Source: Candidatus Heimdallarchaeota archaeon
Lineage (GTDB): Archaea > Asgardarchaeota > Heimdallarchaeia > Hodarchaeales > Hodarchaeaceae
Direction: 5' to 3'
DNA: 31,591 nt
NCBI GenBank assembly: GCA_020353515.1
Contig: CP070695.1
Location: 1,271,637-1,303,227, forward strand
Of the stretch, positions 13,398 to 30,101 are shown piece by piece; positions within the stretch are counted from its first letter, which is position 1; each line of letters starts with the position of its first letter. Both the position numbers and the translations under genes were made by a program. Under the pieces are notes generated by a model that saw only the letters and a program-made list of their open reading frames with translations, searched no databases and was not told the DNA's origin.

Positions 13398-13469
13398 AAA
13401 TAAAATATTTAAGGATTCTTGAAACCGCTCCTTTTGGTTTGTTTTACAAACTTGACGCTTATTACATGC

Positions 13470-13614
13470 GAGACTCTGCCGAAAGTTAAGTTAGGTTCCG
13501 TTTCGGTCTGTACTGTTGTGCGCGAGCCAACGGGAACATCGAGAAGCTGAGTATTGCTCGGCCAGAGGGCCTAGGTTACACCCGGTCTCATTCCGAACCC
13601 GGAAACAGAGTCTC
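13470..13614 (+). rRNA. 5S rRNA gene in circularly permuted order (3' domain, then capped helix I, then 5' domain), including the flanking 9-bp leader/trailer helix.
   Basis: A GC-rich island in an AT-rich spacer. ACACCCGGUCUCAUUCCGAACCCGGAA (13579-13604) is the conserved helix III/loop C. GUUAAG..GUACUGUUGUGCGCGAGCCAACGGGAA (13485-13536) is the conserved loop B, loop E and helix IV region, but it lies upstream of the former. The GCUGAG-UAUUG-CUCGGC hairpin (13546-13562) replaces the free ends. GAGACUCUG (13470-13478) pairs with CAGAGUCUC (13606-13614). Confidence 0.7.
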
Positions 13615-13639
13615 CTTCGTCTTAGGCCCTGGAATTTAC

Positions 13640-13659
13640 TCTTTTAATATTTTATTTTT
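13640..13659 (+). terminator. T-runs downstream of the 5S locus, a putative terminator.
   Basis: TCTTTTAATATTTTATTTTT contains three oligo-T runs within 45 nt of the trailer helix. Confidence 0.4.
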
Positions 13660-13896: not shown

Positions 13897-14808
13897 ATGG
13901 TATTCTCTTCAATAGCCCAGAGCTACTTTGACGAATTCCCATTCCGCCGGGGTACTCCACGGAAACCATCTTCAGGCTTTTTTTTCTTATCTCACGCTCA
14001 TTCAGACCATACATCAGGTCTCCGATCAAGCTTATCTGATCCTGATGCTACAATAGTCTGCTCCAAAGAAACAGCAGCCGTCATCAAGGTACTATATGGA
14101 ATTCCTAGAGAAAAATGTCTTGAAATCAAATCTAGTCAGTCTCTAGACTTCGACAATTTCATAGTTCATGCAATCGATGCCAATCATTGTGTTGGTAGTC
14201 TCTCTTTTGTGATTGAATCAAAAGATGGTTTGAGAGAGGTTTATACTGGTGATTTTAGGTTAGGGGTTCCGATTTTTGATGAACTTAGGTTAATTCAAGA
14301 AACAGATCATCTCTGGGTTGATTATACTTATGGAATTGATCCAATATTTCGGTTTCCTTCAAGAGAAGAAATAATTTCAGAAATAATTACATTAATCCTA
14401 TCTGAGGGGAATTTTCCAGAAAGGGATGTATGGATTTCTTCATATCAAATTGGTAAAGAAAAGCTTCTTAAAACCATCAGTGACGCGCTAAAAGTTAAAA
14501 TTTGGGCATCAGATCTCAAAGTGAAAACCTATAAAGAAATTGGAGGAGAATGGGACATTTTTACGAATGATAGAGATTCAGGAGTTTTTGTTGGTAGCCG
14601 TCGAATGGTAGAAAGGTTACATGGAATAGATAAACAATATCATGATAAGATGACTGAAGCCCTAAGAATCTCTCCCACTGGGTGGGCCTCACGCTTACAC
14701 CAAAAGCATTTAGATGTGAATTTTTTTCCTTACTCAGATCACTGTTCATATTCTGAGGTTCATAAATTCATTAAGCTAGTTAATGCAAAAAGAATCAAAA
14801 AAATCTGA
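13897..14808 (+). CDS. SNM1/PSO2/Artemis-family beta-CASP metallo-beta-lactamase nuclease (DNA repair, DRMBL-type C-terminus).
   Basis: The ordered motifs run FFFLSHAHSDHTSGL, IDANHCVGSLS, YTGDFR, VDYTYG..FRFPSREEII, YQIGKEKLL, ISPTGWA, PYSDHCSYSEVHKFI. They parallel human SNM1A (FLTHFHSDHYAGL, LDANHCPGA, HTGDFR, IGKEK, RPTGW, YSEHSSY), as recalled from memory. Confidence 0.85.
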   Translation: MVFSSIAQSYFDEFPFRRGTPRKPSSGFFFLSHAHSDHTSGLRSSLSDPDATIVCSKETAAVIKVLYGIPREKCLEIKSSQSLDFDNFIVHAIDANHCVGSLSFVIESKDGLREVYTGDFRLGVPIFDELRLIQETDHLWVDYTYGIDPIFRFPSREEIISEIITLILSEGNFPERDVWISSYQIGKEKLLKTISDALKVKIWASDLKVKTYKEIGGEWDIFTNDRDSGVFVGSRRMVERLHGIDKQYHDKMTEALRISPTGWASRLHQKHLDVNFFPYSDHCSYSEVHKFIKLVNAKRIKKI

Positions 14809-14890: not shown

Positions 14891-17086
14891 TTGAGCATAA
14901 AAAATCTTCGAGATATACGTGGAATTGGCCCATCAGTGGAAGACAAGCTGAAGGCATATTTTAAAAGCGAAAATGACGCTCTCACCGCATTACGTGAATC
15001 TCGAATAGCAGAAATATCATCTATCGAGGGAATTGGGGAAAGATTTGCTCTGAGTATGTGTCGTAACCTCCATTTTCAAGAAACTGGGGAGCAGATTCAA
15101 AATTTCTTGAAAACAGAGGATGCGATCTTACTTTATAATCGAGTAATAGATATCATCTCAAAATTTGCTAATACTGCATACTCAAGGTCAAAACTATATT
15201 TATTCTTTCCATTACCAATTACAGCTTTAAATAAAATAAAAACGAGGCAAAAAACGACCCAACGTGCACAAAAATTGGTATCATTAATAAAAAACTCTCC
15301 TCATTCCTTCGAAGATTATGACAAACTGCTCAGGAACCTTTCACCTCTAAAGGAACAAATATCTCAGTTAGATACAGCTTCACGTGTAATAGCAACTGCA
15401 GATAGGCAAATCCATGAAGAGCTTATAGCTAACGAGATAGCAAATTATTGTGAAATCCTTTTTATCGAAGAAATTGAACAAATTTCAGGTTTCATTGGGA
15501 GCTATGATGAAGTTATTTGGATTGGATCAGATATTTTACTTGAAGAAGGAGTTACTAATGCAATTACCATTTCCGAGACTCAACGAAAAGATTTAATTAG
15601 AATAATCCCAGAAAAAACCCTCGTCTTCTTTGCAAATAATAAGAAAATCCTCGAATCAATATCTGGAATAGCTAGATTACTTAAAACAATTTCTCCATCG
15701 GAATTGACTGTATTCATTAGGGAATTAGATCTAGATATACTTATCGAGATGGGTAATGAGCTTTCAAACCTAGAAGAGTCAGGTGAACCAACACAACTTT
15801 TTAACGAAGAATATGCCCGTCTTTTAAACGCAGAACAGAGCTTTGATAACAGCTTAAGTGAAGTTCTTCTACTATTAAATGAAGAACTAGAAAAAACACT
15901 TCAGGACACCACTGTTCACTTAGAAGGAGAAAAAATTCTCGCTCTCTTAAAAGGTATGGGAGAGGAGGAACATAGATACTCCAGGGATAGTGGAAAAGCA
16001 GAACTACGTGAATATCTGGATGATGAACTATATTTAGCAGTTGAAGAGATCGTAACTAAAGCAGAGGAAAACCTTATTCAAAAATTAGCTTTGAGAAGTG
16101 ATGAAACAGATTACATCACAGGAATTTTCCCAAGAGAACTTCAATATCCAGTCGATCCTGTTGATGACGTAGTTAATCGCGTAAAAACCTATTTACGACA
16201 ATCAAGAGCAGTTAAATCTTTTGAACTTAAAGTAGCATTAGCTAAATCTCTTGAGCGATTTGAAATCATTGCTAAAACTGCATTGAATTATATATTTGAG
16301 TTAGATTTTCTTTTAATGATTGGAAAGTTTGCCCTTAGTTATAATCTGGTTCTCCCACAACTTGTTGAAGATCAGGGTACTGGAATCCTTGTGGAAGAAA
16401 GCCGAAATCTATTTTTAATACAACAAGAGCAACGGGGGATGTTGAAAGTTGAATCCGTCTCATATGCAGTAGGAGAAATTGGACAGATTGCTGGTAGTGT
16501 AGATGGTGAACGGATTATCCTTCTTTCAGGTGCAAATAGCGGAGGAAAGACAACACTGATAGTTTCTATTGCAGTATTGGTCATTCTAGGCCAAATGGGG
16601 CTGCCAATTCCGTGTAAACAAGCTATATTCGGGGGTTTTAACGAATTACATTATTATCGAAAGGCCTCAGGACAAATGGATGCTGGAGCTTTTGAAACTA
16701 CATTACGGACATTATCTCAAATGATAATGAGTCCAAATTCACGATTGGTGTTAGCTGATGAAATGGAAAGCATGTCGGAGCCAGGCGCATCCGCTCGGGT
16801 GATAGCAGCCTTTTTAGACCTATTAGGTCGCTCACCAAATTCAGTTGGAGTATTCGTAACCCACTTAGCCCAATTAATAGCAAAATATACTAAGGGAAAA
16901 CTGCGTATCGATGGGATTGAGGCACAAGGTCTATCTAAGGATTTAGAACTCATTGTAAATCGGACACCTGTATACTATCAATATGCGAAATCAACACCAG
17001 AATTAATTGTGAGAAGATTACAACAAATCTCGAAAGGCGATGAAAAAGAAATCTATTCTTACATACTAGAAGCCTTTGAATCTTAA
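14891..17086 (+). CDS. Archaeal MutS-like ABC-type ATPase (MutS domain V) with N-terminal helix-hairpin-helix motifs.
   Basis: HhH-like segments IRGIGPSVEDKL and IEGIGERFA. Walker A is LLSGANSGGKTTL, Walker B region is LVLADEMESMSEPGA, and FVTHL follows downstream. 731 aa, TTG start. Confidence 0.75.
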   Translation: MSIKNLRDIRGIGPSVEDKLKAYFKSENDALTALRESRIAEISSIEGIGERFALSMCRNLHFQETGEQIQNFLKTEDAILLYNRVIDIISKFANTAYSRSKLYLFFPLPITALNKIKTRQKTTQRAQKLVSLIKNSPHSFEDYDKLLRNLSPLKEQISQLDTASRVIATADRQIHEELIANEIANYCEILFIEEIEQISGFIGSYDEVIWIGSDILLEEGVTNAITISETQRKDLIRIIPEKTLVFFANNKKILESISGIARLLKTISPSELTVFIRELDLDILIEMGNELSNLEESGEPTQLFNEEYARLLNAEQSFDNSLSEVLLLLNEELEKTLQDTTVHLEGEKILALLKGMGEEEHRYSRDSGKAELREYLDDELYLAVEEIVTKAEENLIQKLALRSDETDYITGIFPRELQYPVDPVDDVVNRVKTYLRQSRAVKSFELKVALAKSLERFEIIAKTALNYIFELDFLLMIGKFALSYNLVLPQLVEDQGTGILVEESRNLFLIQQEQRGMLKVESVSYAVGEIGQIAGSVDGERIILLSGANSGGKTTLIVSIAVLVILGQMGLPIPCKQAIFGGFNELHYYRKASGQMDAGAFETTLRTLSQMIMSPNSRLVLADEMESMSEPGASARVIAAFLDLLGRSPNSVGVFVTHLAQLIAKYTKGKLRIDGIEAQGLSKDLELIVNRTPVYYQYAKSTPELIVRRLQQISKGDEKEIYSYILEAFES

Positions 17087-17469: not shown

Positions 17470-17543
17470 TGGGCCGGGACGGATTTGAACCATCGACATC
17501 CAGTGTGTGAGACTGGCATCATACCGGGCTAGATCACCGGCCC
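17470..17543 (-). tRNA. tRNA-Val (anticodon CAC), no intron, CCA not encoded.
   Basis: The reverse complement folds as a cloverleaf. Acceptor stem GGGCCGG pairs with CCGGCCC, and the discriminator is A. The anticodon stem is CCAGU/ACUGG with loop CUCACAC. The variable loop is AUGUC. The T arm is GAUGG-UUCAAAU-CCGUC. The D arm is AUCU/UGAU with a GG-containing loop. Coordinates are +/-1. Confidence 0.92.
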
Positions 17544-18584: not shown

Positions 18585-19967
18585 ATGTTAGAGATCACAG
18601 TATTCGGCGCAGCAGAATCGGTGGGAAAGTCTTGTATCATGATTTCCGATCGTGACCATAAAATTCTTTTAGATGCTGGAATACAACTCCACCCTCGTAG
18701 GACTGGATTACTTTCAACACCTCCTGAAGGAGTGGATGTGTATAGCGACGAGATCGACTCAGTATTGCTCTCTCATGCCCATATTGATCATTCTGCCTAC
18801 ATTCCTGCTCTGTACAGGGCGGGATATCAAGGATTGGTACACTGTACAACTCCAACCAAGGATATTACAGAAATATTGTGGAAGGATCATTTGAAAATTG
18901 AAGGCCCACATCATTATGGTATCTCTCACTTACACTCAGCTCTTGCGAAAACTAAGACACATGAGTATCAACGGAAATTCTCGATAACTGATGGGATCAC
19001 AGCTGAGTTTTTTGATGCTAGCCATATCTTAGGGAGCGCTACAATTCTCCTTGATTGGAAGGGGACATTGATTCTATATACTGGGGACTTCAATAATGCA
19101 AAAACCCCTTATCATGATCCTATTGTGTATCCCGACCCAGATGAACCCATAGATATATTATTGACTGAAACAACGAATGCTAATCGAAAAATAAGCAGTA
19201 GTAGAAAACTTGTTGCATCGAACTTGACAAAGGCATTGTTAAAATGTTATTCCCGTGGTGGAAAGGCAATTATCCCTTCTTTTGCATTAGGTAGAAGTCA
19301 GGAAATCCAAGCATACCTCACTAGTGATTTTGATTCCTTTCTTTATAAGTTTCCCCTCTATATAGATGGAATGATCCTTGATATGAACATGATTTATCAA
19401 AAATATTTGAATGAGAAATGGGTTTCACCACGTATTCTTATGGAACTGAAAGAAAAAGGTTATCGGACTCCATTCGAGCATGAAGGACTTAAAACAATTG
19501 ATGAAGTCTCCTATACGGGAAAGAGGGGGAAGAAAAGAGAAAAGTTGATAACCCAAGAACAACGGAGTATAATTTTGACGACATCAGGAATGCTTGAGGG
19601 TGGCCCTGTTTATGACTACCTCCGACATGGAGGAAGTAGTTCTCTAAATGGGTTATATATCGTTGGATATCAAGTCAAAGGAACTCTTGGGGCAGATATT
19701 ATATCTGGGAAGAAAGAATTAACCCTGAATAATGGATTTGGGCAATTGTTTGATGTATCATTAGCTTTGGAGGTAAAACGGTTTGAATTTTCGGGTCATG
19801 CTTCGCTAGATGGATTAATTCAAATGGTACGCTACAGCTCACCCTCTTTAGTTTATGCTTTACATGGAGAACCTGAAGCTCAACAAGCTTATTCCCGAGC
19901 GCTTGAGGGATTTAACCAGAAAATCTCAATATTATCTCCTAAAGAAGTACTTTACAACTACCCATGA
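18585..19967 (+). CDS. beta-CASP metallo-beta-lactamase RNA-metabolising hydrolase (aCPSF2/RNase J-like, no KH domains).
   Basis: Motifs LLSHAHIDHSAY (HxHxDH), DASHILGSA, YTGDFN, LLTETT (motif A), FSGHAS (motif B), ALHGEP (motif C). Confidence 0.85.
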   Translation: MLEITVFGAAESVGKSCIMISDRDHKILLDAGIQLHPRRTGLLSTPPEGVDVYSDEIDSVLLSHAHIDHSAYIPALYRAGYQGLVHCTTPTKDITEILWKDHLKIEGPHHYGISHLHSALAKTKTHEYQRKFSITDGITAEFFDASHILGSATILLDWKGTLILYTGDFNNAKTPYHDPIVYPDPDEPIDILLTETTNANRKISSSRKLVASNLTKALLKCYSRGGKAIIPSFALGRSQEIQAYLTSDFDSFLYKFPLYIDGMILDMNMIYQKYLNEKWVSPRILMELKEKGYRTPFEHEGLKTIDEVSYTGKRGKKREKLITQEQRSIILTTSGMLEGGPVYDYLRHGGSSSLNGLYIVGYQVKGTLGADIISGKKELTLNNGFGQLFDVSLALEVKRFEFSGHASLDGLIQMVRYSSPSLVYALHGEPEAQQAYSRALEGFNQKISILSPKEVLYNYP

Positions 19968-24227: not shown

Positions 24228-26405
24228 ATGAAATCTGCAGAAATTCGGTTAAAGGTCAAAGAAGCGCATTACCGTGATGTTGGCCGAGGTATGGCGAGGA
24301 TCTCAAAAGCACATATGAAAGAATTAAAGATTTCTTCCGGTGATGTCCTGTTAATTGAGGGAGCTTTGGGAAAAAAAACAACTGCAATCGCCTGGCCTGC
24401 TTATAGTAGTGAAGAAAAAGATTTGATGATTTCAATTGATGCAACAACCCGATCAAATGCAGGAGTTCGATTGGATGAGTTAGTAACTATTCGAAAGGCA
24501 TCTACGGCTGCAGCAGAAAAGATTGTTTTTGCTCCCACTACAGGAAATATCTTGAAGGGCATTGAAGGATATCTTCACCGCGAACTTCAGGGGAGAGCCT
24601 TTTCTCTTGATGATAAAATTCGTTTAGAGTACATGGGTAATCTTTTTGAATATAATGTCTTGAGTATCTCACCAAAGCAGGATTCTGTTTTCATAGATCA
24701 AGGTACTGTCATTAAAATTACTTCTACCTCTACCATCTCTGAAGGGGTATCCGCTGATTATAAACTCATACCAAAAATAGCTTATGAGGATATTGGAGGA
24801 TTAGATGATACGATTCAGAAATTAAGAGAAATGGTTGAGCTCCCCATGCGATATCCTGAATTGTTTCAGCGTTTGGGAGTAGAACCACCAAAAGGGGTTC
24901 TTCTTTACGGCCCTCCTGGTACTGGAAAAACTTTATTGGCAAAAGCAGTTGCAAATGAAACTGAATCTCATTTTATTGATGTATCTGGCCCCGAGGTTAT
25001 GTCAGTTTACCACGGGGGAAGTGAGAAAAGGATCCGTGAGATTTTCCAAGAAGCGGAAGAAAAATCTCCTAGTATCTTGTTTATCGATGAAATTGATAGT
25101 ATCTCTCCTAAACGTGATGAGAAGTCCTCTGGTGAGATGGAACGACGAGTAGTTGCACAAATGCTCGCTTTGATGGATGGCCTAGAAAGTCGTGGTGAAA
25201 TAATCGTAATTGGAGCTACAAATCGTCCTAATGCAATTGATCCAGCTCTACGTCGTCCTGGCCGATTTGATCGTGAAATTGAAATCGGAATTCCTGATAA
25301 AAATGGTCGGTTGTCAATATTAGAAATCCATACACGATCTATGCCTCTTGCTGACACAGTTAATCTAGAAGACCTTGCAACCCGAACTCATGGTTTCGTA
25401 GGAGCAGATTTGTTATCATTAACCAAAGAAGCTGGAATGCATGCAATTAGGCGAGTTTTTCCAAAAATTGTATGGGGGGAAGAAATCTCTATGGATATAA
25501 TTAATCAAATATTGGTATTACCTGAAGATTTTGATATTGCTTTGACAGAAGTCAAACCTAGTGCCCTCAGAGAAGTCTTTGTAGAAGTACCTACCGTAAC
25601 ATGGGATGAAGTTGGAGGGTTAGATGAGATAAAACGTGAATTGAAAGAAATTATTGAATGGCCTTCAAAATACCCTATGATATTCAATTATTTAGAAGCA
25701 GAAATACCACGGGGAATTCTGTTGACAGGCCCTCCGGGAACAGGTAAGACGCTATTGGTTCGAGCTATTGCAAGTGAGTCTTCGAAAAATTTTATTTATG
25801 TGAAAGGTTCGGAAATTCATTCAAAATGGGTAGGAGAGAGCGAAAAAGCAATTCAAGAAACATTTCGTAAAGCTAGAATTAGTGCTCCATGTATAGTATT
25901 TTTTGACGAGATTGATGCTTTACTTCCATCACGAACGTCTAATGTTTCCGATTCTGGTGTCACTGATAGGATTGTGACTACTTTCTTGACTGAAATGGAT
26001 GGTTTGGAAGAATTAATCAATGTTATAGTTATCGCAGCTTCCAATCGTCCAGATATTCTTGATACAGCCTTATTAAGACCAGGTAGATTTGAACGAGTCA
26101 TTGAACTCCCATTACCAGATGAAAAAGCCCGTGAAGAAATACTAAGGGTCCATATAAAGAATAAGCCCATATCCTCTCGTGTTTTACTATCTGACATAGC
26201 AAACAGAACAAATGGGTTCAGCGGTGCTGATCTTAAAGGAATTATAAATCGTGCAACTTTCCTATCTATTAACCAGTTTCTTGAAAAAAATAAAGAGGCT
26301 TTTGATAAAATACCTCCTTTAGAAAGAACCGAATTTATTAAAGATCAACAGCTTGAAATAAAATTATCCCATATAAACGAGGCTCTTGAGTATTATAAAT
26401 CTTGA
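24228..26405 (+). CDS. cdc48: Cdc48/VCP-type AAA+ ATPase (N domain plus D1 and D2).
   Basis: N-domain DVGRGMARISKAHMKELKISSGDVLLIEG. Two GPPGTGKTLL Walker A motifs. Two Walker B motifs (ILFIDEIDS, IVFFDEIDA). SRH regions ATNRPNAIDPALRRPGRFDREI and ASNRPDILDTALLRPGRFERVI. Confidence 0.95.
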   Translation: MKSAEIRLKVKEAHYRDVGRGMARISKAHMKELKISSGDVLLIEGALGKKTTAIAWPAYSSEEKDLMISIDATTRSNAGVRLDELVTIRKASTAAAEKIVFAPTTGNILKGIEGYLHRELQGRAFSLDDKIRLEYMGNLFEYNVLSISPKQDSVFIDQGTVIKITSTSTISEGVSADYKLIPKIAYEDIGGLDDTIQKLREMVELPMRYPELFQRLGVEPPKGVLLYGPPGTGKTLLAKAVANETESHFIDVSGPEVMSVYHGGSEKRIREIFQEAEEKSPSILFIDEIDSISPKRDEKSSGEMERRVVAQMLALMDGLESRGEIIVIGATNRPNAIDPALRRPGRFDREIEIGIPDKNGRLSILEIHTRSMPLADTVNLEDLATRTHGFVGADLLSLTKEAGMHAIRRVFPKIVWGEEISMDIINQILVLPEDFDIALTEVKPSALREVFVEVPTVTWDEVGGLDEIKRELKEIIEWPSKYPMIFNYLEAEIPRGILLTGPPGTGKTLLVRAIASESSKNFIYVKGSEIHSKWVGESEKAIQETFRKARISAPCIVFFDEIDALLPSRTSNVSDSGVTDRIVTTFLTEMDGLEELINVIVIAASNRPDILDTALLRPGRFERVIELPLPDEKAREEILRVHIKNKPISSRVLLSDIANRTNGFSGADLKGIINRATFLSINQFLEKNKEAFDKIPPLERTEFIKDQQLEIKLSHINEALEYYKS

Positions 26406-26445: not shown

Positions 26446-27243
26446 TTGCAACTCGAAAATCTAACTGGAGAAATTGAAGATTGGCTTGAAAGAGTGGAAG
26501 AAGAAGAAAATCTCAAATTTATAAGGCAGATGGAATCTAAACCTCTTGAGGGGACTGTTGCAATCGAAATGCTAGGGTATTACGGATCTGTAGACCGAAT
26601 GATTACAAAAGAAATTCAAAAATTGAGTCAAAATACAAGAAAACTTGCTGGTTTTTTTTCAAGTTACTTTAATGAAATGGTGCAAATGTATTCCGGTGAA
26701 ATTTTACTCCCTATCACCATTCTTCAAACACAAATTGGTTCAAAAGACTTCATTTTAACCACAAGCAATTTTGCAATACCTGATGTGATTAGTTATAGGC
26801 TGGCTGAGGAATTATATAGATTTTATAAGAAACAAAGAGTTTCAAAGATATATCTAGTAGATGGTGCATATAATTACAAACGTAACATTAAACAGAAACC
26901 ACAAGTTCATAAAATTACTTCGTCAGAGTTTCAAATCAGGGTTACAAATGAAAAATTAGCCAATTTTACTCTTATGGGTCAGATAGCCAGTTCATTCCTA
27001 ACTTATTGGAGTTATAATGGAGACATTCCCATTGAGATTTTAGTTGTAGATGCTTTTTCCGATTATGACCCAATTTCTTCACTTGAGTTGCTAAAGGTTT
27101 TAACCAAACAATGGGAGATAGAAGCGGATTTTAATGAATTAGAAAAGAGATCACAAGAATTTATACATTTATACAAACAATCCAAAAAAGAAATCCATGC
27201 AGAGGAGCAAAAAGTGGACTTTGATCCACGTTTCTTTGTCTGA
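26446..27243 (+). CDS. PAC2-family (proteasome assembly chaperone, PbaA/B-like, COG1938) protein, tentative.
   Basis: TVAIEMLGYYGSVDRMITKEI resembles the PAC2 N-terminal IEGLPGIGLVGKLA block. ILVVDAFSDYDPISSLELLKVLTKQWEIEADFNELEKRSQEF resembles the C-terminal PAC2 block. Both comparisons are from memory. TTG start; an internal ATG (MESKPLEG) is an alternative start. Confidence 0.5.
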   Translation: MQLENLTGEIEDWLERVEEEENLKFIRQMESKPLEGTVAIEMLGYYGSVDRMITKEIQKLSQNTRKLAGFFSSYFNEMVQMYSGEILLPITILQTQIGSKDFILTTSNFAIPDVISYRLAEELYRFYKKQRVSKIYLVDGAYNYKRNIKQKPQVHKITSSEFQIRVTNEKLANFTLMGQIASSFLTYWSYNGDIPIEILVVDAFSDYDPISSLELLKVLTKQWEIEADFNELEKRSQEFIHLYKQSKKEIHAEEQKVDFDPRFFV

Positions 27244-27968: not shown

Positions 27969-30101
27969 TTGATCATATTAGCTGATAAACTAAACCAGTC
28001 AGAAATTCCTCAAAGCCTAAATAATTTTTTGCCATTACTTAATGGTGTCAAAAGGATAAATTCTCGTGAAATTTCTACTATATTAGGCCAAACTGTGGAT
28101 TTCCTTTTTATAGACCTACGTGAAGATTTTGTTCCTAATAAGATAAATATCCTATTGGAAGCTGTTCGTGGAGGTGGTGTGATTTTTATTCTTGGTCTTC
28201 CTTATTCTGAATGGATTTACTCAGTCAATCAGAAGCAGGATTCCATTGAGAAAGGATCTTCTACAGAGATAAAAAGAAGAAAATCTATCTTCTTAAGTTG
28301 GTTTTATGAGAATCTTAAGAATAATACGCAATGTAATACCAAAAAAGTTTGTTCTACTGAAGTCATTGCCAGCTTCAAGCCAATGCCATATAACATTAAT
28401 CTAGCAGCTCATATCAAGGATATTCTTGTTACGATTGAACAAAAAAAGGTGATTAACGGCCTTAATGACATTTTTTTTGATTCTACAAATTCTAATAGCT
28501 GTACCACTTTGTTAGCTAATAGGGGAAGAGGAAAATCGGCTTCTATAGGACTATTTATTTCTCAAGTTCTTTCAAAAATAAGTAAACGTACATTCACAGC
28601 AACAATCTCTTCTCCCCATCCAACAAATGTTCAAGTACTATTTGATTTTCTTTCAAGAGGTTTAATCTCAGAAAACATTAAGTTTCGTAAAATCAAACAA
28701 GAGGGTTTGGTTTCTGGAATATACACTTCATCTAATTCTAATTCAAAAATTACATATATTTGGCCGAGCGAAATAAAAACTAATTTAAAAACTGATTTAT
28801 TTGTTGTTGATGAAGCAGCAGCAATACCTATAGAAATTTTGAAGAAAATTACAAAAATAAGCGCCAAAAAAATATTTTTATCAACAATTCATGGGTATGA
28901 AGGAGCAGGAAGAGGTTTCCAACACAAATTTCTTCATTACTTAAGAAAGCAGAAACAGATCAATTATATAGAGTACAATTTAACTCAACCAATAAGATAT
29001 ATGAAAGGAGATTCTATAGAGAAGCTGCTAAATCATACCTTTCTTTTGGATGTTGAACTAGAACCGTTAAAAGTTGATTCTCGATCCATCGAGAGAAATA
29101 CATTAAAATTGCAAGTGCATAAGGATCCAAAATACTTGTTTTCAAAGGATGGACTACCCCACCTCAAACAACTCTTCAGTCTACTAATTTATGCACATTA
29201 TCGAAATCAACCAAACGATTTAATAGTGCTAGCTGATTCAGGAAAACACTTTCTAGCTGGTGTTTATGGAAAAGATAATCAAAAAAACGAATTATTATTG
29301 GTGTCCAGTCAATTAGCTGAAGAGGGGATGATGAAAAGTGAAGAGATTCAAGAAATTACTTCTGGTAAATTTATAAAAGGAAACCTCATCTCAACTATTT
29401 CCATACGTCATTTTTCAGAGAAATTAGCTAAATTACGTGGCTTAAGAGTTGTTAGAATAGCTGTTCATCCAAGTTTAATCGATAAAGGATTTGGACGTTT
29501 AGCTATAGAGCTGCAAGATCAAATCTTTTCATCTTATGAATGGATTGGTGTTAGTTATGGTGCAACAGTTAAACTAATGAAATTCTGGAGGAAATTTAAT
29601 TTCGTTTCAGTCCATATTCGCCCGATCAAAACATTGGAAACGGGTGAATGGAATATTATTGTGATACGACCATTAGGGCCTTCCGCTAAGGACATTATTA
29701 GTCAAGCTTCTGCTGATTTTCTTTTACAGTTTATAGCTTTACTCAAACAATCAATACATTCAATGAAACCAGAATTAGTCGTCCAAATTCTCAAGAGTTG
29801 CAATCCTATTCCTGATTATAAGCCTAAAATTACCTCTAGTGGTACTATCAGGTTAAAGAATTATTTAAAAGGGCATTTGAACTTTTTACTTGCAGTAGAT
29901 GTAATATATGAGTTAACTGTAAAATATTTTGTATCACCACAGACAATCAAACTCAGTCCAAGTCAAGAAGCATTATTAATTACTCGTATCCTTCAAGGAA
30001 GGACATGGGGTCAAACATTAAGCAAAACAGGGTTAAAATGGAAAACAGCTAATAGTTTACTAGAGAAAGCTGTTGCTAAAATCGCACAAGAGTATTTTTA
30101 A
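27969..30101 (+). CDS. tmcA: tRNA(Met) cytidine acetyltransferase TmcA (NAT10/Kre33 homologue). The real N-terminus probably lies upstream (27830-27968).
   Basis: Helicase-like P-loop ANRGRGKSAS, FVVDEAAAIP, STIHGYEGAGRGF, and GNAT segment VRIAVHPSLIDKGFGRLAIE. The frame is open from 27837, with TmcA-like sequence (QRTLFLFKNENEA) but no canonical start. Confidence 0.9.
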   Translation: MIILADKLNQSEIPQSLNNFLPLLNGVKRINSREISTILGQTVDFLFIDLREDFVPNKINILLEAVRGGGVIFILGLPYSEWIYSVNQKQDSIEKGSSTEIKRRKSIFLSWFYENLKNNTQCNTKKVCSTEVIASFKPMPYNINLAAHIKDILVTIEQKKVINGLNDIFFDSTNSNSCTTLLANRGRGKSASIGLFISQVLSKISKRTFTATISSPHPTNVQVLFDFLSRGLISENIKFRKIKQEGLVSGIYTSSNSNSKITYIWPSEIKTNLKTDLFVVDEAAAIPIEILKKITKISAKKIFLSTIHGYEGAGRGFQHKFLHYLRKQKQINYIEYNLTQPIRYMKGDSIEKLLNHTFLLDVELEPLKVDSRSIERNTLKLQVHKDPKYLFSKDGLPHLKQLFSLLIYAHYRNQPNDLIVLADSGKHFLAGVYGKDNQKNELLLVSSQLAEEGMMKSEEIQEITSGKFIKGNLISTISIRHFSEKLAKLRGLRVVRIAVHPSLIDKGFGRLAIELQDQIFSSYEWIGVSYGATVKLMKFWRKFNFVSVHIRPIKTLETGEWNIIVIRPLGPSAKDIISQASADFLLQFIALLKQSIHSMKPELVVQILKSCNPIPDYKPKITSSGTIRLKNYLKGHLNFLLAVDVIYELTVKYFVSPQTIKLSPSQEALLITRILQGRTWGQTLSKTGLKWKTANSLLEKAVAKIAQEYF

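What the first reader, a model, noticed from the sequence alone, without database searches (positions are those of the whole stretch)
13470..13632. Circularly permuted 5S rRNA gene bracketed by a bulge-helix-bulge-like leader/trailer helix
Every conserved archaeal 5S element is present on the + strand, but in rotated order.

1. Positions 13485-13551 carry the 3' two-thirds. In order these are GUUAAG, the helix II 3' strand UUAGGUUCC, helix V UUUCGGU, loop E GUACUG, helix IV/loop D UUGUGCGCGAGCCAAC, GGGAA, helix V' AUCGAGA, and the helix I 3' strand GCUGAG.
2. A 5-nt cap UAUUG (13552-13556) joins this directly to the 5' third at 13557-13604. That part runs helix I 5' strand CUCGGC, loop A CAGA, helix II GGGCCUAGG, and helix III/loop C ACACCCGGUCUCAUUCCGAACCCGGAA.
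3. So the normal termini are covalently closed by a hairpin, and the gene is opened between ...CCCGGAA and GUUAAG....

The opening is bracketed by a perfect 9-bp helix, GAGACUCUG (13470-13478) with CAGAGUCUC (13606-13614). Next to it, CCG(A) 13479-13482 can pair with (C)CGG 13599-13602. This leaves two 3-nt A-rich bulges on opposite strands (13482-13484 or 13483-13485, and 13603-13605). An inner GUU:AAC helix pairs 13485-13487 with 13596-13598. That is the flank-H-bulge-flank order of the motif cut by the archaeal splicing endonuclease, although H has only 3 bp plus an A.C mismatch.

Cutting after the second bulge nucleotide on each strand and ligating would join A13604 to G13485 (or to A13484). 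This recreates the consensus ...CCGAACCCGGAAGUUAAG... and gives a 120-nt (or 121-nt) circle, which is normal 5S size.

There is one further oddity. Trailer 13621-13630 (CUUAGGCCCU) is a 10-bp complement (one G.U pair) of the helix II 5' strand (13566-13575). It is stronger than the mature helix II partner. It could be a precursor-only helix, or a vestige of the tandem duplication that would generate a permuted gene.

Alternative model: no ligation occurs, and a linear permuted 5S keeps the 9-bp helix as a new terminal stem.

Permuted tRNA genes, SRP RNA and 23S rRNA are known in a few archaea. I am not aware of a BHB-flanked permuted archaeal 5S gene.
Basis: partly seen in the sequence, partly recalled or inferred. 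Interest (0 to 1): 0.9.

Follow-up and report, generated by a model that had tools for sequence, protein, structure and literature searches.

The report
Circularly permuted Asgard 5S rRNA gene
This Asgard archaeon encodes its 5S ribosomal RNA with the two parts in swapped order, flanked by a splicing-type motif that should cut and rejoin the transcript into a 120-nt circle, which would explain why ordinary searches could not find a 5S gene in closed genomes of this lineage.

Summary
Window 13485-13604 (+) is a complete 5S rRNA in rotated order.

- **It is a 5S.** Rfam's colinear 5S model finds only fragments here. A covariance model built from 14 ordinary archaeal 5S genes, rotated in silico at CGGAA|GUUAAG, gives one full-length hit at exactly 13485-13604 (112 bits, E 2e-24).
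- **It is conserved.** The same permuted gene is found in about 40 Asgard genome loci titled Hod-/Heimdallarchaeota, Lokiarchaeota-type, Jord-/Freyarchaeota and one "Thermoproteota". The 5S helices covary strongly: 96% of cells are paired and 24 of 33 pairs show compensatory changes.
- **The flanks look like a splicing site.** They form a covarying outer helix, a 4-bp H helix and a 3-nt bulge on each strand, in the bulge-helix-bulge topology.
- **The predicted cuts fit.** Cutting after the second bulge nucleotide gives a 120-123-nt circle with the canonical 5S junction in all 25 loci tested.
- **H is selected, not a relic.** It changes by compensation between lineages, and a Loki-like metagenome group has moved the break into loop C.

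Most likely mechanism (inferred, no RNA data): cleavage by the splicing endonuclease and RtcB ligation to a circular 5S.

I found no prior report. Wu et al. 2022 could not predict a 5S gene in closed Heimdallarchaeum genomes.

The parts
13405..13412 (+). TATA-box-like promoter element ATATTTAA
   Evidence: A (T/A)ATATTTAAA / TATATAAA element sits at the same distance upstream in all 15 group A relatives printed. Its promoter function is inferred from archaeal promoter architecture (established knowledge), not tested.
13414..13431 (+). Conserved block GATTCTTGAAACCGCTCC just downstream of the TATA element; probably the promoter-proximal region and transcript start
   Evidence: The consensus GACTCTTGAAWGCGCTCC is recognisable in most group A loci. 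The transcription start is not mapped.
13437..13451 (+). Leader hairpin GUUUGU-UUU-ACAAAC
   Evidence: Read directly from the sequence. Relatives carry a hairpin at the same leader position (for example GGUUUGUAGCUGCGACUACAACC in L022 and L024), and the Loki-type loci also have a leader hairpin. Its role is unknown.
13454..13457 (+). 5' strand (GACG) of a weak distal leader/trailer helix
   Evidence: In relatives a 5-7-bp helix at the same position covaries: GCGCC/GGCGC, UGUGCU/AGCACA, GUUACGC/GCGUAAC, GUUGCG/CGCAAC. In the window only 4 bp remain (GACG with CGUC 13618-13621), and the per-locus shuffle tests are not significant. Assignment is tentative.
13470..13478 (+). Outer helix h, 5' strand (GAGACUCUG)
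   Evidence: Forms 9 perfect bp with 13606-13614. In 16 distinct relatives 91% of cells are paired and 5 of 9 pairs show changes on both sides. The helix is part of the minimum-free-energy fold of the precursor.
13479..13482 (+). Central helix H, 5' strand (CCGA)
   Evidence: Pairs with CCGG 13599-13602 (3 bp plus A13482.C13599). Relatives have CCGG or CUGG, which gives 4 bp. The Jord/Frey lineage has CGUG/CACG, a compensatory replacement.
13483..13485 (+). 5' bulge AAG; predicted endonuclease cut between A13484 and G13485
   Evidence: Placed by BHB geometry. The two discarded nucleotides vary between lineages (AA, AC, AU), while the retained G is invariant. Cleavage was not tested.
13485..13551 (+). 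3' two-thirds of the 5S rRNA: GUUAAG, helix II 3' strand, helix V, loop E, helix IV/loop D, helix V', helix I 3' strand
   Evidence: Aligned to positions 1-67 of rotated model R1 with no non-standard pair. Matches Rfam RF00001 positions ~49-120. The helices covary.
13552..13556 (+). Cap loop UAUUG closing helix I where an ordinary 5S has its two ends
   Evidence: The helix I stem covaries (GCUGAG/CUCGGC against GCUGGG/CCCGGC and GCUGAAG/CUUCGGC). Loops differ between lineages, and many Loki-type genes have UUCG.
13557..13604 (+). 5' third of the 5S rRNA: helix I 5' strand, loop A, helix II 5' strand, helix III and loop C, ending ...CCCGGAA
   Evidence: R1 alignment. Rfam RF00001 positions 27-51 match 13580-13604 at 20.8 bits.
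13599..13602 (+). Central helix H, 3' strand (CCGG); the same four bases are the 3' strand of mature helix III
   Evidence: The H pairing and helix III (13582-13585 with 13599-13602) are mutually exclusive. The BHB conformer lies 3.0 kcal/mol above the minimum free energy here.
13603..13605 (+). 3' bulge AAA; predicted cut between A13604 and A13605
   Evidence: Placed by BHB geometry. The retained AA is invariant, and the discarded third nucleotide is A, U or G across lineages.
13606..13614 (+). Outer helix h, 3' strand (CAGAGUCUC)
13618..13630 (+).
   Evidence: The 10-bp complementarity to 13566-13575 is real in the window. It is absent in 14 relatives, where the best matches are 4-7 bp and mostly runs of U. 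It is probably fortuitous.
13642..13659 (+). T-rich stretch (TTTT, TTTT, TTTTT); probable transcription terminator
   Evidence: Oligo-T runs occur 35-50 nt downstream of the core in nearly all relatives. Termination at oligo-T is established for archaeal RNA polymerase but was not tested here.

Best explanation
Window 13485-13604 is the functional 5S rRNA gene of this Asgard (Heimdall/Hodarchaeales-type) archaeon, encoded in circularly permuted order.

**Proposed pathway**
1. An independent transcript of about 200 nt is made, from a TATA-type promoter near 13405 to an oligo-T stretch near 13645.
2. The transcript folds so that leader and trailer form a processing stem. This comprises a weak distal helix, the 9-bp helix 13470-78/13606-14, and the 4-position H helix 13479-82/13599-602. 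A 3-nt bulge follows H on each strand.
3. This is a relaxed bulge-helix-bulge site. The archaeal splicing endonuclease EndA cuts after A13484 and after A13604.
4. The RtcB ligase joins A13604 to G13485. This creates the universal ...CCGAACCCGGAA-GUUAAG... junction and releases CCGG 13599-602 to form helix III.
5. The product is a covalently closed 120-nt 5S rRNA. Helix I is capped by UAUUG instead of having free ends. This circle, or less likely a re-opened derivative, is built into the 50S subunit.

**Shown:** 5S identity, permuted order, conservation, covariation of the 5S helices and of the flanking helices, and exact agreement of the predicted cut sites with the canonical junction across lineages.

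**Inferred:** transcription limits, EndA cleavage, RtcB ligation, circularity of the mature RNA, and absence of a colinear 5S elsewhere in the genome.
For: **Identity**
- Rotated model R1, built only from colinear archaeal 5S genes, gives a single full-length hit at 13485-13604 (112.1 bits, E 2e-24).
- Rfam's colinear model finds only two fragments in swapped order.
- The rotated sequence folds into the three-arm 5S.

**Function and selection**
- The gene lies in the same gap between an MptE-like gene and an MBL/DRMBL gene in species whose MBL protein is only 61-80% identical.
- 47 Asgard loci give full-length R1 hits of 56-123 bits.
- In 37 distinct sequences 96.1% of cells are paired, against 27-44% when partners are slid. 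24 of 33 pairs show changes on both sides.
- The promoter-like element and the oligo-T stretch are conserved.

**Processing motif**
- The outer helix covaries (5 of 9 pairs).
- In all 25 non-redundant loci of four flank designs, the best BHB within +/-3 nt has H >= 3/4 and h >= 3 bp. It predicts a circle of exactly the length of the model hit. The same holds in 1.4% of trials after shuffling the leader.
- H is CCGG/CCGG in Hod- and Loki-type genes but CGUG/CACG in Jord/Frey genes. There both cuts shift by one nucleotide and still give ...CACGGA-AGUCAAA.... H is therefore kept for pairing and is not merely a duplication relic.
- The bulge nucleotides predicted to be discarded vary, and the retained ones are invariant.
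- H competes with mature helix III. That makes sense for a transient processing structure, not for a permanent one.
- A Loki-like metagenome group (L055, L132, L164) has the break inside loop C. Its BHBs use three different registers and give 119-121-nt circles. A permanent nick with a stem in the conserved loop C is hard to reconcile with function, whereas ligation removes the problem.

**Context from papers**
- Asgard EndA is the (alpha-beta)2 type with the L1 loop that confers relaxed-BHB specificity (PMC5829648).
- Circular 16S and 23S transcripts occur in Asgard archaea, and circular 23S sits in mature archaeal ribosomes (PMC12918454).
- Wu et al. [quoted passage not shown]
- Rfam at its gathering score misses the permuted genes in L001, L010, L009, L047 and L164, but finds the colinear controls.
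Against: - No RNA data were available, so no junction-spanning read, transcript end or RNase R result was examined.
- The motif is not a canonical hBHBh'. In the window H has an A.C mismatch. The inner helix h' is at best GUU/AAC with a 2-nt bulge, or absent with a 3-nt bulge.
- The BHB conformer is not the predicted minimum-free-energy fold. It lies 0.2-7 kcal/mol above it.
- CCGG is a palindrome that also repeats the 5S sequence. Within the Hod and Loki groups alone, H could therefore be a duplication relic.
- I could not scan the rest of the 4.9-Mb genome for a colinear 5S.
- Some Asgard genome bins are reported to contain a 5S gene, including a Jordarchaeum, so the permuted state is not universal or annotation is inconsistent.
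- The loci are phylogenetically related, so the counts of loci are not independent events.
Confidence: 0.8

Rival explanations
1. Linear permuted 5S. The transcript is only trimmed, with no ligation. The 9-bp leader/trailer helix persists as a new terminal stem that holds the two halves together. The ribosome then carries a 5S with its ends in loop B.
For: - The outer helix is strong, covaries and is part of the minimum-free-energy fold.
- Brown-algal mitochondria use a linear 5S with relocated ends (PMC4267664).
- Engineered permuted 5S works in E. coli (PMC7283268; abstract).
Against: - It does not explain a conserved, compensating H helix that competes with helix III.
- It does not explain the fixed 3-nt bulges, or the exact match between BHB-rule cut sites and the canonical junction in every lineage, including the one-nucleotide register shift.
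- In the loop C group it would leave a permanent nick plus an extra stem inside the most conserved loop.
- In the Loki-type genes the helix next to H is only 3-6 bp.
Confidence: 0.09
2. Circular intermediate, linear product. EndA and RtcB make the circle, as in the best explanation. A second nuclease then opens the helix I cap (13552-13556), giving an ordinary linear 5S with conventional ends. This is how permuted tRNAs of Cyanidioschyzon are finished.
For: - Permuted tRNA genes mature in this way (Soma 2007, as cited in PMC4267664).
- Circular pre-16S and pre-23S RNAs are re-opened in several archaea (PMC10515664 abstract; PMC12918454 background).
- The UAUUG cap is well conserved among the closest relatives.
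Against: - Cap loops differ between lineages and carry no shared motif.
- Many Loki-type genes use UUCG, which in my own knowledge is a UNCG-class stable tetraloop and typical of a permanent cap.
- Helix I is only 6-8 bp including the cap, so opening the cap would leave a short terminal helix.
Confidence: 0.09
3. Non-functional relic or rearranged pseudogene. The working 5S is a colinear gene elsewhere in the genome.
For: - The rest of the genome could not be scanned.
- Some Asgard genome bins are reported with a 5S gene.
Against: - Purifying selection with compensatory changes acts on every 5S helix across dozens of species and at least four flank designs.
- Synteny, the promoter-like element and the terminator are conserved.
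- Loop sequences are identical to canonical 5S.
- No 5S could be predicted in closed genomes of this clade.
Confidence: 0.02

Closest known systems
Circularly permuted SRP RNA gene of Thermoproteus
   Same: - An essential, structured non-coding RNA gene in an archaeon whose 3' part is encoded upstream of its 5' part.
- Leader and trailer form a bulge-helix-bulge site.
- The tRNA splicing machinery cuts and ligates it.
- The functional product is a covalently closed circle.
   Different: - A different RNA family (SRP RNA, not ribosomal) and a different phylum (Thermoproteota).
- There the circle was shown experimentally; here it is inferred.
- Here the break point differs between lineages (loop B side against loop C).
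Circularly permuted tRNA genes (Cyanidioschyzon merolae, Soma et al. 2007, as cited in PMC4267664; Thermofilum pendens, from my own knowledge)
   Same: - Swapped gene halves.
- The normal termini are joined by a short linker.
- A BHB-like motif lies at the flanks.
- Maturation goes through a circular RNA made by the splicing endonuclease and a ligase.
   Different: - tRNA circles are re-opened at the acceptor stem by RNase P and tRNase Z to give a linear product.
- For this 5S no re-opening signal is evident, and the cap looks permanent.
BHB-dependent circular pre-16S/pre-23S rRNAs, circular 23S in ribosomes, and the permuted 23S of Pyrococcus/Thermococcus (PMC12918454, PMC7758197, bioRxiv 10.64898/2026.03.23.713588)
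   Same: - rRNA processing stems carry a BHB that EndA cuts.
- Ligation gives circular rRNA, which in many archaea stays circular in the ribosome.
- Circular 16S and 23S transcripts have been seen in Asgard archaea.
   Different: - Those genes are colinear, so circularisation joins the natural ends and is not needed to restore sequence order.
- The background of PMC12918454 explicitly excludes 5S from this pathway.
Permuted mitochondrial 5S rRNA of brown algae and other stramenopiles (Valach et al. 2014, PMC4267664)
   Same: - A natural 5S rRNA in which helix I is a closed hairpin and the ends lie elsewhere.
- Standard 5S models miss it or mis-annotate it.
- A dedicated permuted covariance model finds it.
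   Different: - It is organellar.
- The ends sit at the junction of the alpha and gamma domains.
- The product is linear and permuted, with no BHB and no ligation.
- Here the break lies between helix III and helix II (or in loop C) and is predicted to be sealed.
Low-level circular forms of colinear 5S rRNA in Sulfolobus and Halobacterium (Danan et al. 2012, PMC3326292)
   Same: A 5S-sized (123-nt) circular RNA was detected by circRNA-seq in archaea.
   Different: - Those genes are colinear.
- The circles were minor and not confirmed by RT-PCR.
- The authors considered them possible intermediates or degradation products.

Membership tests
5S rRNA (Rfam RF00001, clan CL00113) | All sequence and structure elements of a ~120-nt 5S are present: helices I-V and loops A-E, including CCGAAC in loop C and GUACUG...GGGAA around loop E | tested here: met
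   Rotated covariance model R1 built from colinear archaeal 5S genes gives a full-length hit at 13485-13604 (112.1 bits, E 2e-24, no non-standard pair). The rotated sequence folds into the three-arm shape.
5S rRNA (Rfam RF00001, clan CL00113) | Colinear order 5'-I-II-III-III'-II'-V-IV-IV'-V'-I'-3', scoring above Rfam's gathering score of 38 bits | tested here: not met
   There is no hit at the gathering score. Only fragments of 20.8 and 15.6 bits appear, in swapped order. Other permuted loci behave the same way, while colinear controls score 55-92 bits. The failure is due to the permutation, not to a missing element.
5S rRNA (Rfam RF00001, clan CL00113) | Helices maintained by compensatory substitutions among homologues | tested here: met
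   96.1% of cells are paired and 24 of 33 pairs change on both sides. No shuffle out of 500 reaches the observed values, and slid controls give 27-44%. Caveat: the alignment was fitted to the model.
5S rRNA (Rfam RF00001, clan CL00113) | Incorporation into the large ribosomal subunit | not testable with these tools
   Needs ribosome purification, RNA-seq or cryo-EM.
Bulge-helix-bulge substrate of the archaeal splicing endonuclease | Central helix H of 4 bp | tested here: inconclusive
   The window has 3 bp plus an A13482.C13599 mismatch. 8 of 16 close relatives have 4 bp. The Loki-type and Jord/Frey-type loci have 4 of 4.
Bulge-helix-bulge substrate of the archaeal splicing endonuclease | Two 3-nt bulges on opposite strands, each directly 3' of its H strand | tested here: met
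   The bulges are 13483-13485 and 13603-13605. The same geometry is found in 25 of 25 loci. The same reading rule applied to the L061 insert gives the canonical loop C, which serves as an internal check.
Bulge-helix-bulge substrate of the archaeal splicing endonuclease | Outer helix h flanking the motif | tested here: met
   9 bp in the window, covarying. 3-13 bp in other lineages.
Bulge-helix-bulge substrate of the archaeal splicing endonuclease | Inner helix h' (needed for the canonical hBHBh' form) | tested here: not met
   With a 3-nt 5' bulge no pair follows (h' = 0 for the expected motif wherever it tops the search). Only GUU 13485-87 with AAC 13596-98 can pair, and only if the bulge is 2 nt. 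The site is therefore a relaxed form. According to PMC5829648, such forms are cut only by EndA types that carry a specific loop, which Asgard EndA has.
Bulge-helix-bulge substrate of the archaeal splicing endonuclease | Actual cleavage by EndA at the second/third bulge nucleotide | not testable with these tools
   Needs an in vitro assay or RNA end mapping.
Circularly permuted non-coding RNA genes matured through a circular RNA (permuted tRNA, Thermoproteus SRP RNA) | The 3' part is encoded upstream of the 5' part, with the natural termini joined by a short linker | tested here: met
   the cap is 13552-13556.
Circularly permuted non-coding RNA genes matured through a circular RNA (permuted tRNA, Thermoproteus SRP RNA) | Flanks form a splicing-endonuclease site whose cuts restore the canonical sequence on ligation | tested here: met
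   The predicted junction ...CCGAACCCGGAA-GUUAAG... is identical to that of colinear archaeal 5S genes. The circle is 120 nt.
Circularly permuted non-coding RNA genes matured through a circular RNA (permuted tRNA, Thermoproteus SRP RNA) | Junction-spanning (back-spliced) transcripts exist | not testable with these tools
   No RNA-seq access.
Stramenopile mitochondrial permuted 5S (mtPerm-5S) | Ends located at the junction of the alpha and gamma domains, with a linear permuted product | tested here: not met
   Here the break lies between helix III and helix II (13604|13485), inside the beta domain, and carries a BHB. The family is described in PMC4267664.

The most novel reading that the evidence does not exclude
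Ribosomes of several Asgard lineages contain a covalently closed circular 5S rRNA made from a permuted gene by the tRNA-splicing machinery. These lineages include the Hodarchaeales-type group closest to eukaryotes, a Lokiarchaeota subgroup and the Jord/Freyarchaeia. The permutation would be old (shared across classes) or recurrent. Its break point has migrated at least once, from the loop B side to loop C. It may derive from a BHB intron such as the one seen in loop C of the colinear 5S gene in L061.
Probability: 0.55. Interest if true: 0.9.

Novelty: new variant of a known kind. Interest (0 to 1): 0.85.

Why it matters
- **Scope.** 5S rRNA is treated as universally colinear and 'easily identified' in archaeal genomes. 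A permuted, probably circular 5S would be the first case for a cellular (non-organellar) ribosome. It would add 5S to the RNAs whose order is restored by the archaeal splicing endonuclease and ligase.
- **A practical puzzle.** It explains why 5S genes could not be predicted in closed Heimdallarchaeum genomes (PMC8813620). The absence of 5S from Asgard genome bins therefore should not count against their completeness.
- **A tool.** A rotated covariance model finds these genes at 56-123 bits.
- **Testable predictions.** Exact junction sequences are now available for organisms that sit next to the eukaryotic stem and exist in enrichment cultures.
- **Evolutionary question.** Break points that differ between lineages, together with a possible 5S intron at one of those sites, touch on how introns, split genes and permuted genes interconvert.

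Tried and rejected
1. **Direct scoring of the rotated sequence with Rfam RF00001.** I ran the inverse test instead, rotating real colinear 5S genes and searching the native window.
2. **Search for circular-junction transcripts or colinear close relatives** with one metagenome scan. No Hod-type junction contig was seen, so this says nothing either way. It did supply the colinear set, the loop C group and L061.
3. **Viral-contig scan for the colinear junction.** No hits.
4. **Unconstrained BHB search** over +/-45 nt. It was too permissive, because AU-rich spurious motifs outscored the real one in loci with an H mismatch. I replaced it with a search anchored within +/-3 nt of the model boundaries and a shuffle control.
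Rejected as not conserved.
6. **Distal leader/trailer helix.** It is consistent in position and compensating between relatives, but the per-locus shuffle tests are mostly not significant. It is kept only as tentative.
7. **tRNA introns for a same-genome BHB comparison.** ARAGORN listed only ordinary-length tRNA-Val genes (74-77 nt), none with an intron, in 37 loci.
8. **Exact-protein look-up of the MptE-like neighbour.** No record, probably because the called start differs.
9. **Cultured Lokiarchaeia.** Homologues of the gene downstream of the Loki-type 5S gave no named cultured organism, so whether Promethearchaeum syntrophicum MK-D1 has a permuted 5S remains unknown.
10. **Identity of the closed-genome loci.** PMC8813620 gives only BioProject PRJNA721962 and no CP070 accessions. 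I could not establish whether the closed-genome loci I fetched (CP070760.1, CP070665.1) are the Wu et al. genomes.
11. **Whole-genome check for a colinear 5S.** Not possible, because only the 31.6-kb window and flanks of up to 10 kb are accessible.
Full report
**1. What is in the sequence**

The elements are:
- GAGACUCUG (13470-78) and CAGAGUCUC (13606-14), which are perfectly complementary;
- CCGA (13479-82), which faces CCGG (13599-602);
- AAG (13483-85) and AAA (13603-05), which are left unpaired;
- 13485-13551, which carries GUUAAG, the helix II 3' strand, helix V, loop E, helix IV/loop D, GGGAA, helix V' and the helix I 3' strand;
- UAUUG (13552-56), which caps helix I;
- 13557-13604, which carries the helix I 5' strand, loop A, the helix II 5' strand and helix III/loop C.

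The window is AT-rich (about 35% G+C). It comes from an Asgard genome bin. The ORF at 13897-14808 is 100% identical to a protein of a 'Candidatus Heimdallarchaeota archaeon' on a 4.94-Mb contig. Its nearest homologues are labelled Hodarchaeales, Hodarchaeota or Promethearchaeota.

**2. Is it a 5S, and is it permuted?**

Rfam at its gathering scores finds only tRNA-Val (17470-17543, minus strand) in the whole window, and no 5S.

With a permissive threshold the 5S model gives two sub-threshold pieces. Model positions 27-51 match 13580-13604 at 20.8 bits. A forced global alignment at 13448-13555 is genuine only for model positions ~49-120. So the 3' part lies upstream of the 5' part.

- I took 14 non-redundant ordinary colinear archaeal 5S genes recovered from metagenome contigs.
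- I rotated each at CGGAA|GUUAAG, aligned them (A1) and checked that RNAalifold recovers helices I-V.
- I built model R1 from that alignment.

R1 finds one hit in the window, at 13485-13604 on the plus strand. It covers model positions 1-125 of 125 at 112.1 bits and E 2e-24, with no non-standard pair.

The rotated sequence also folds by minimum free energy into the textbook three-arm 5S.

As a control, Rfam's own model at its gathering score detects colinear genes in L062 (92 bits), L073 (71 bits) and L061 (55 bits). It detects nothing in five loci with permuted genes.

**3. Conservation**

*Syntenic relatives.* Homologues of the downstream MBL/DRMBL gene led to syntenic loci: HerA-like, thioredoxin reductase-like, PTPS, MptE-like, a gap, MBL/DRMBL, MutS-like. 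These include species whose MBL protein is only 61% identical. Every gap holds the same permuted gene of 120-121 nt.

*Genome scan.* One scan of species-representative genomes used a pattern that can only match the permuted order: GTACTG..GGGAA..YCCGAACNCGGAA. It returned 45 loci. Five bacterial ones are chance matches that R1 rejects. The rest give full-length R1 hits of 56-123 bits.

*Flank designs.* By sequence and flanks the hits fall into four groups:
- **A:** titles Heimdallarchaeota, Hodarchaeota or Promethearchaeota. The window belongs here.
- **B:** includes Hel_238_bin105 and DZG_bin1.240, which Yin et al. 2020 treat as Lokiarchaeota genome bins (PMC8027215).
- **C:** titles Jordarchaeia or Freyarchaeota.
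- **D:** a single 'Thermoproteota' genome bin with a GC-rich gene.

NCBI titles from some submitters are clearly unreliable. For example, L039 and L002 carry identical precursor sequence under different phylum-level names, and L029 is a Loki-type locus in a 'Nanopelagicaceae' bin.

*Covariation.* On the 37 distinct sequences:
- 96.1% of cells form standard pairs, against 27-44% when partners are slid by 1-3 columns;
- 24 of 33 pairs show changes on both sides;
- no shuffle out of 500 reaches the observed values.

The alignment was fitted to the model, which favours the structure somewhat, but the effect is far larger than that bias.

A TATA-like element with an adjoining conserved block lies upstream, and oligo-T runs lie downstream, in group A. 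This indicates a free-standing transcription unit.

**4. The flanks**

*Within group A* (16 distinct sequences, A3), the 9-bp outer helix is 91% paired and 5 of 9 pairs change on both sides. Examples are GAGACUCUG/CAGAGUCUC, GAAUCUCUG/CAGAGAUUC and GAGAUAUUG/CAAUAUCCC. Three H pairs are kept. The fourth is G-C in eight sequences and A.C in eight, including the window.

*Topology.* On each strand, read 5' to 3', H is followed by a 3-nt bulge, and the outer helix abuts H on the other side. That is the geometry of the archaeal bulge-helix-bulge motif: two 3-nt bulges separated by a 4-bp helix (PMC5829648). Cleavage after the second bulge nucleotide is established knowledge that I did not re-read here.

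*Internal check of the reading rule.* The colinear 5S gene in L061 carries a 30-nt insert flanked by UCUC|AU^A and GAGA|AG^U, with both h and h'. Applying the same rule joins ...GGUCUCAU to UCCGAAC.... That is exactly the loop C sequence of the window.

*Anchored search.* I searched for the best BHB within +/-3 nt of the model boundaries. Every locus of groups A-D has H >= 3/4 and h of 3-13 bp. Each predicted circle (120-123 nt) equals the length of the R1 hit. That holds for 25 of 25 non-redundant loci, against 1.4% after shuffling the leader.

Three observations go beyond what a duplication relic would give:
- **H changes by compensation.** It is CCGG/CCGG in groups A and B but CGUG/CACG in group C. 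There H sits one nucleotide further 5' on the 3' strand, and both cut sites shift together, still producing ...CACGGA-AGUCAAA....
- **Variation falls on the discarded nucleotides.** These vary (5' bulge AA, AC or AU; third nucleotide of the 3' bulge A, U or G), while the retained nucleotides are invariant.
- **H conflicts with the mature fold.** It uses the same four bases (13599-602) as the 3' strand of helix III, so it can only be a precursor structure. The BHB conformer lies 0.2-7 kcal/mol above the minimum free energy (3.0 kcal/mol in the window).

*What is missing.* A convincing inner helix h' is absent, so the site is a relaxed BHB. According to Kaneta et al. 2018, relaxed forms need an EndA with a specific loop. 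Asgard archaea have the (alpha-beta)2 type with the L1 loop (PMC5829648).

**5. A second break point**

Among the metagenome contigs, three (L055, L132, L164) have a Loki-like 5S. Its leader architecture matches group B: AACCAUAUAA, a hairpin, then the motif. Here, however, the gene starts at ...AUUCCGAAC and ends at ...CCCGGUC(NC), so the break lies inside loop C.

Their BHBs use three different registers against the helix III 5' strand. One example is L164: AAGG|GACC|AA^A with GGUC|AC^U|CCUU. All three give circles of 119-121 nt with a normal-sized loop C.

A permanent nick bearing a stem in the most conserved 5S loop is implausible. A ligated junction makes the position of the break neutral, which would explain why it can differ between lineages.

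**6. Mechanism and rivals**

*Best explanation (confidence 0.8).* The transcript forms the processing stem. EndA cuts after A13484 and A13604. RtcB joins the ends. The result is a 120-nt covalently closed 5S with a capped helix I.

Supporting context from papers:
- Circular 16S and 23S transcripts were seen in Asgard archaea, and circular 23S sits in mature ribosomes (PMC12918454).
- Colinear 5S circles exist at low level in Sulfolobus and Halobacterium (PMC3326292).
- E. coli tolerates a 5S with closed natural ends (PMC7283268; abstract).

*Rivals.*
- A linear permuted 5S held together by the outer helix (0.09).
- A circular intermediate re-opened at the cap (0.09). The varied cap loops, UUCG among them, argue against a cleavage signal.
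- A pseudogene (0.02).

None of the processing steps is shown by data.

**7.

The complementarity of trailer 13621-13630 to helix II is 10 bp in the window. It is 4-7 bp, mostly runs of U, in 14 relatives, including the closest ones.

In relatives that part of the trailer is the 3' strand of a distal leader/trailer helix. This helix changes by compensation between species but is weak in the window, where only GACG 13454-57 and CGUC 13618-21 pair.

I regard the helix II complementarity as fortuitous.

**8. Known or new?**

Six full-text searches found no report of a permuted or BHB-flanked archaeal 5S. What the papers do say:
- Valach et al. 2014 describe 5S as 'easily identified' in archaeal genomes. 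Their permuted mitochondrial 5S is linear, with ends at a different site.
- The background of PMC12918454 states that circularisation concerns 16S and 23S 'but not 5S'.
- Wu et al. [quoted passage not shown]

The principle, a permuted gene repaired by BHB splicing into a circle, is known for tRNA and, from my own knowledge, for Thermoproteus SRP RNA. I therefore file this as a new variant of a known kind.

**9. Limits**
- No RNA evidence was available.
- No whole-genome scan for a colinear 5S was possible.
- Taxon labels are NCBI titles.
- The loci are related, so counts of loci overstate the number of independent events. There are at least four independent flank designs and two break points.
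- Some Asgard genome bins are reported to have a 5S gene, so the trait is not universal in the phylum.

Noticed in passing
L061:3721-3866 (minus strand; metagenome contig Ga0209541_10004646): A colinear 5S rRNA gene (Rfam 55 bits, 146 nt) carries a 30-nt insert in loop C, bounded by a canonical hBHBh' motif (CGG|UCUC|AU^A ... GAGA|AG^U|CCG). Splicing by the standard rule gives CCCGGUCUCAU-UCCGAAC, identical to the window's loop C. This looks like an intron in a 5S rRNA gene, a few nucleotides from the break point of the loop C permuted group. The organism was not identified; the flanking proteins are AT-rich and Ile/Lys/Asn-rich.
   Followed up: partly
L055:10499-10620, L132:1838-1950, L164:1467-1586 (all minus strand): These Loki-like permuted 5S genes have the break inside loop C rather than after CGGAA. 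Each has a BHB in a different register. This is a second permutation break point in the same RNA family.
   Followed up: partly
L172, L166, L161, L109, L131, L127, L059, L079 (metagenome loci; 5S region around the pattern match): These colinear archaeal 5S genes have a structured insertion of roughly 100 nt a few nucleotides after GGGAA, before the helix V'/helix I 3' strands (for example GGGAAGC[CUAUCCCCCUGAGGGG...GUCGGUGGA]ACGCUGUCGGCC). It is conserved among several contigs. It could be an expansion segment or an intron.
   Followed up: no
window 13897-14808 (+): The gene just downstream of the 5S encodes a 303-aa MBL plus DRMBL protein. Beyond a few more distant unnamed homologues at 31-37% identity, its next named relatives are eukaryotic SNM1/Apollo/Artemis-type nucleases (30-33% identity, E 4e-20 to 6e-18). 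It is followed by a MutS-like ATPase (14891-17086), and the pair is conserved across the Hod-type loci.
   Followed up: no
L029 (contig DATKTW010000142.1, titled Candidatus Nanopelagicaceae bacterium): This contig carries a typical Loki-type permuted 5S (63 bits with R1), nearly identical to those of Promethearchaeota genome bins. It is probably an archaeal contig binned into a bacterial genome. Likewise, L039 ('Hermodarchaeota') carries the same precursor sequence as L002 ('Promethearchaeota').
   Followed up: no
window 13414-13431 and the same position in L001-L051: An 18-nt block (consensus GACTCTTGAAWGCGCTCC) directly after the TATA-like element is recognisable in most Hod-type loci. It is more conserved than the rest of the leader. 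It could be a promoter-proximal element, the transcript start, or a binding site.
   Followed up: no
window 18585-19967, 24228-26405, 26446-27243, 27969-30101: The neighbourhood also encodes a beta-CASP/RMMBL nuclease (aCPSF-like), Cdc48, a PAC2-family proteasome-assembly-like protein and a NAT10/TmcA-type RNA cytidine acetyltransferase. No link to the 5S locus is evident.
   Followed up: no
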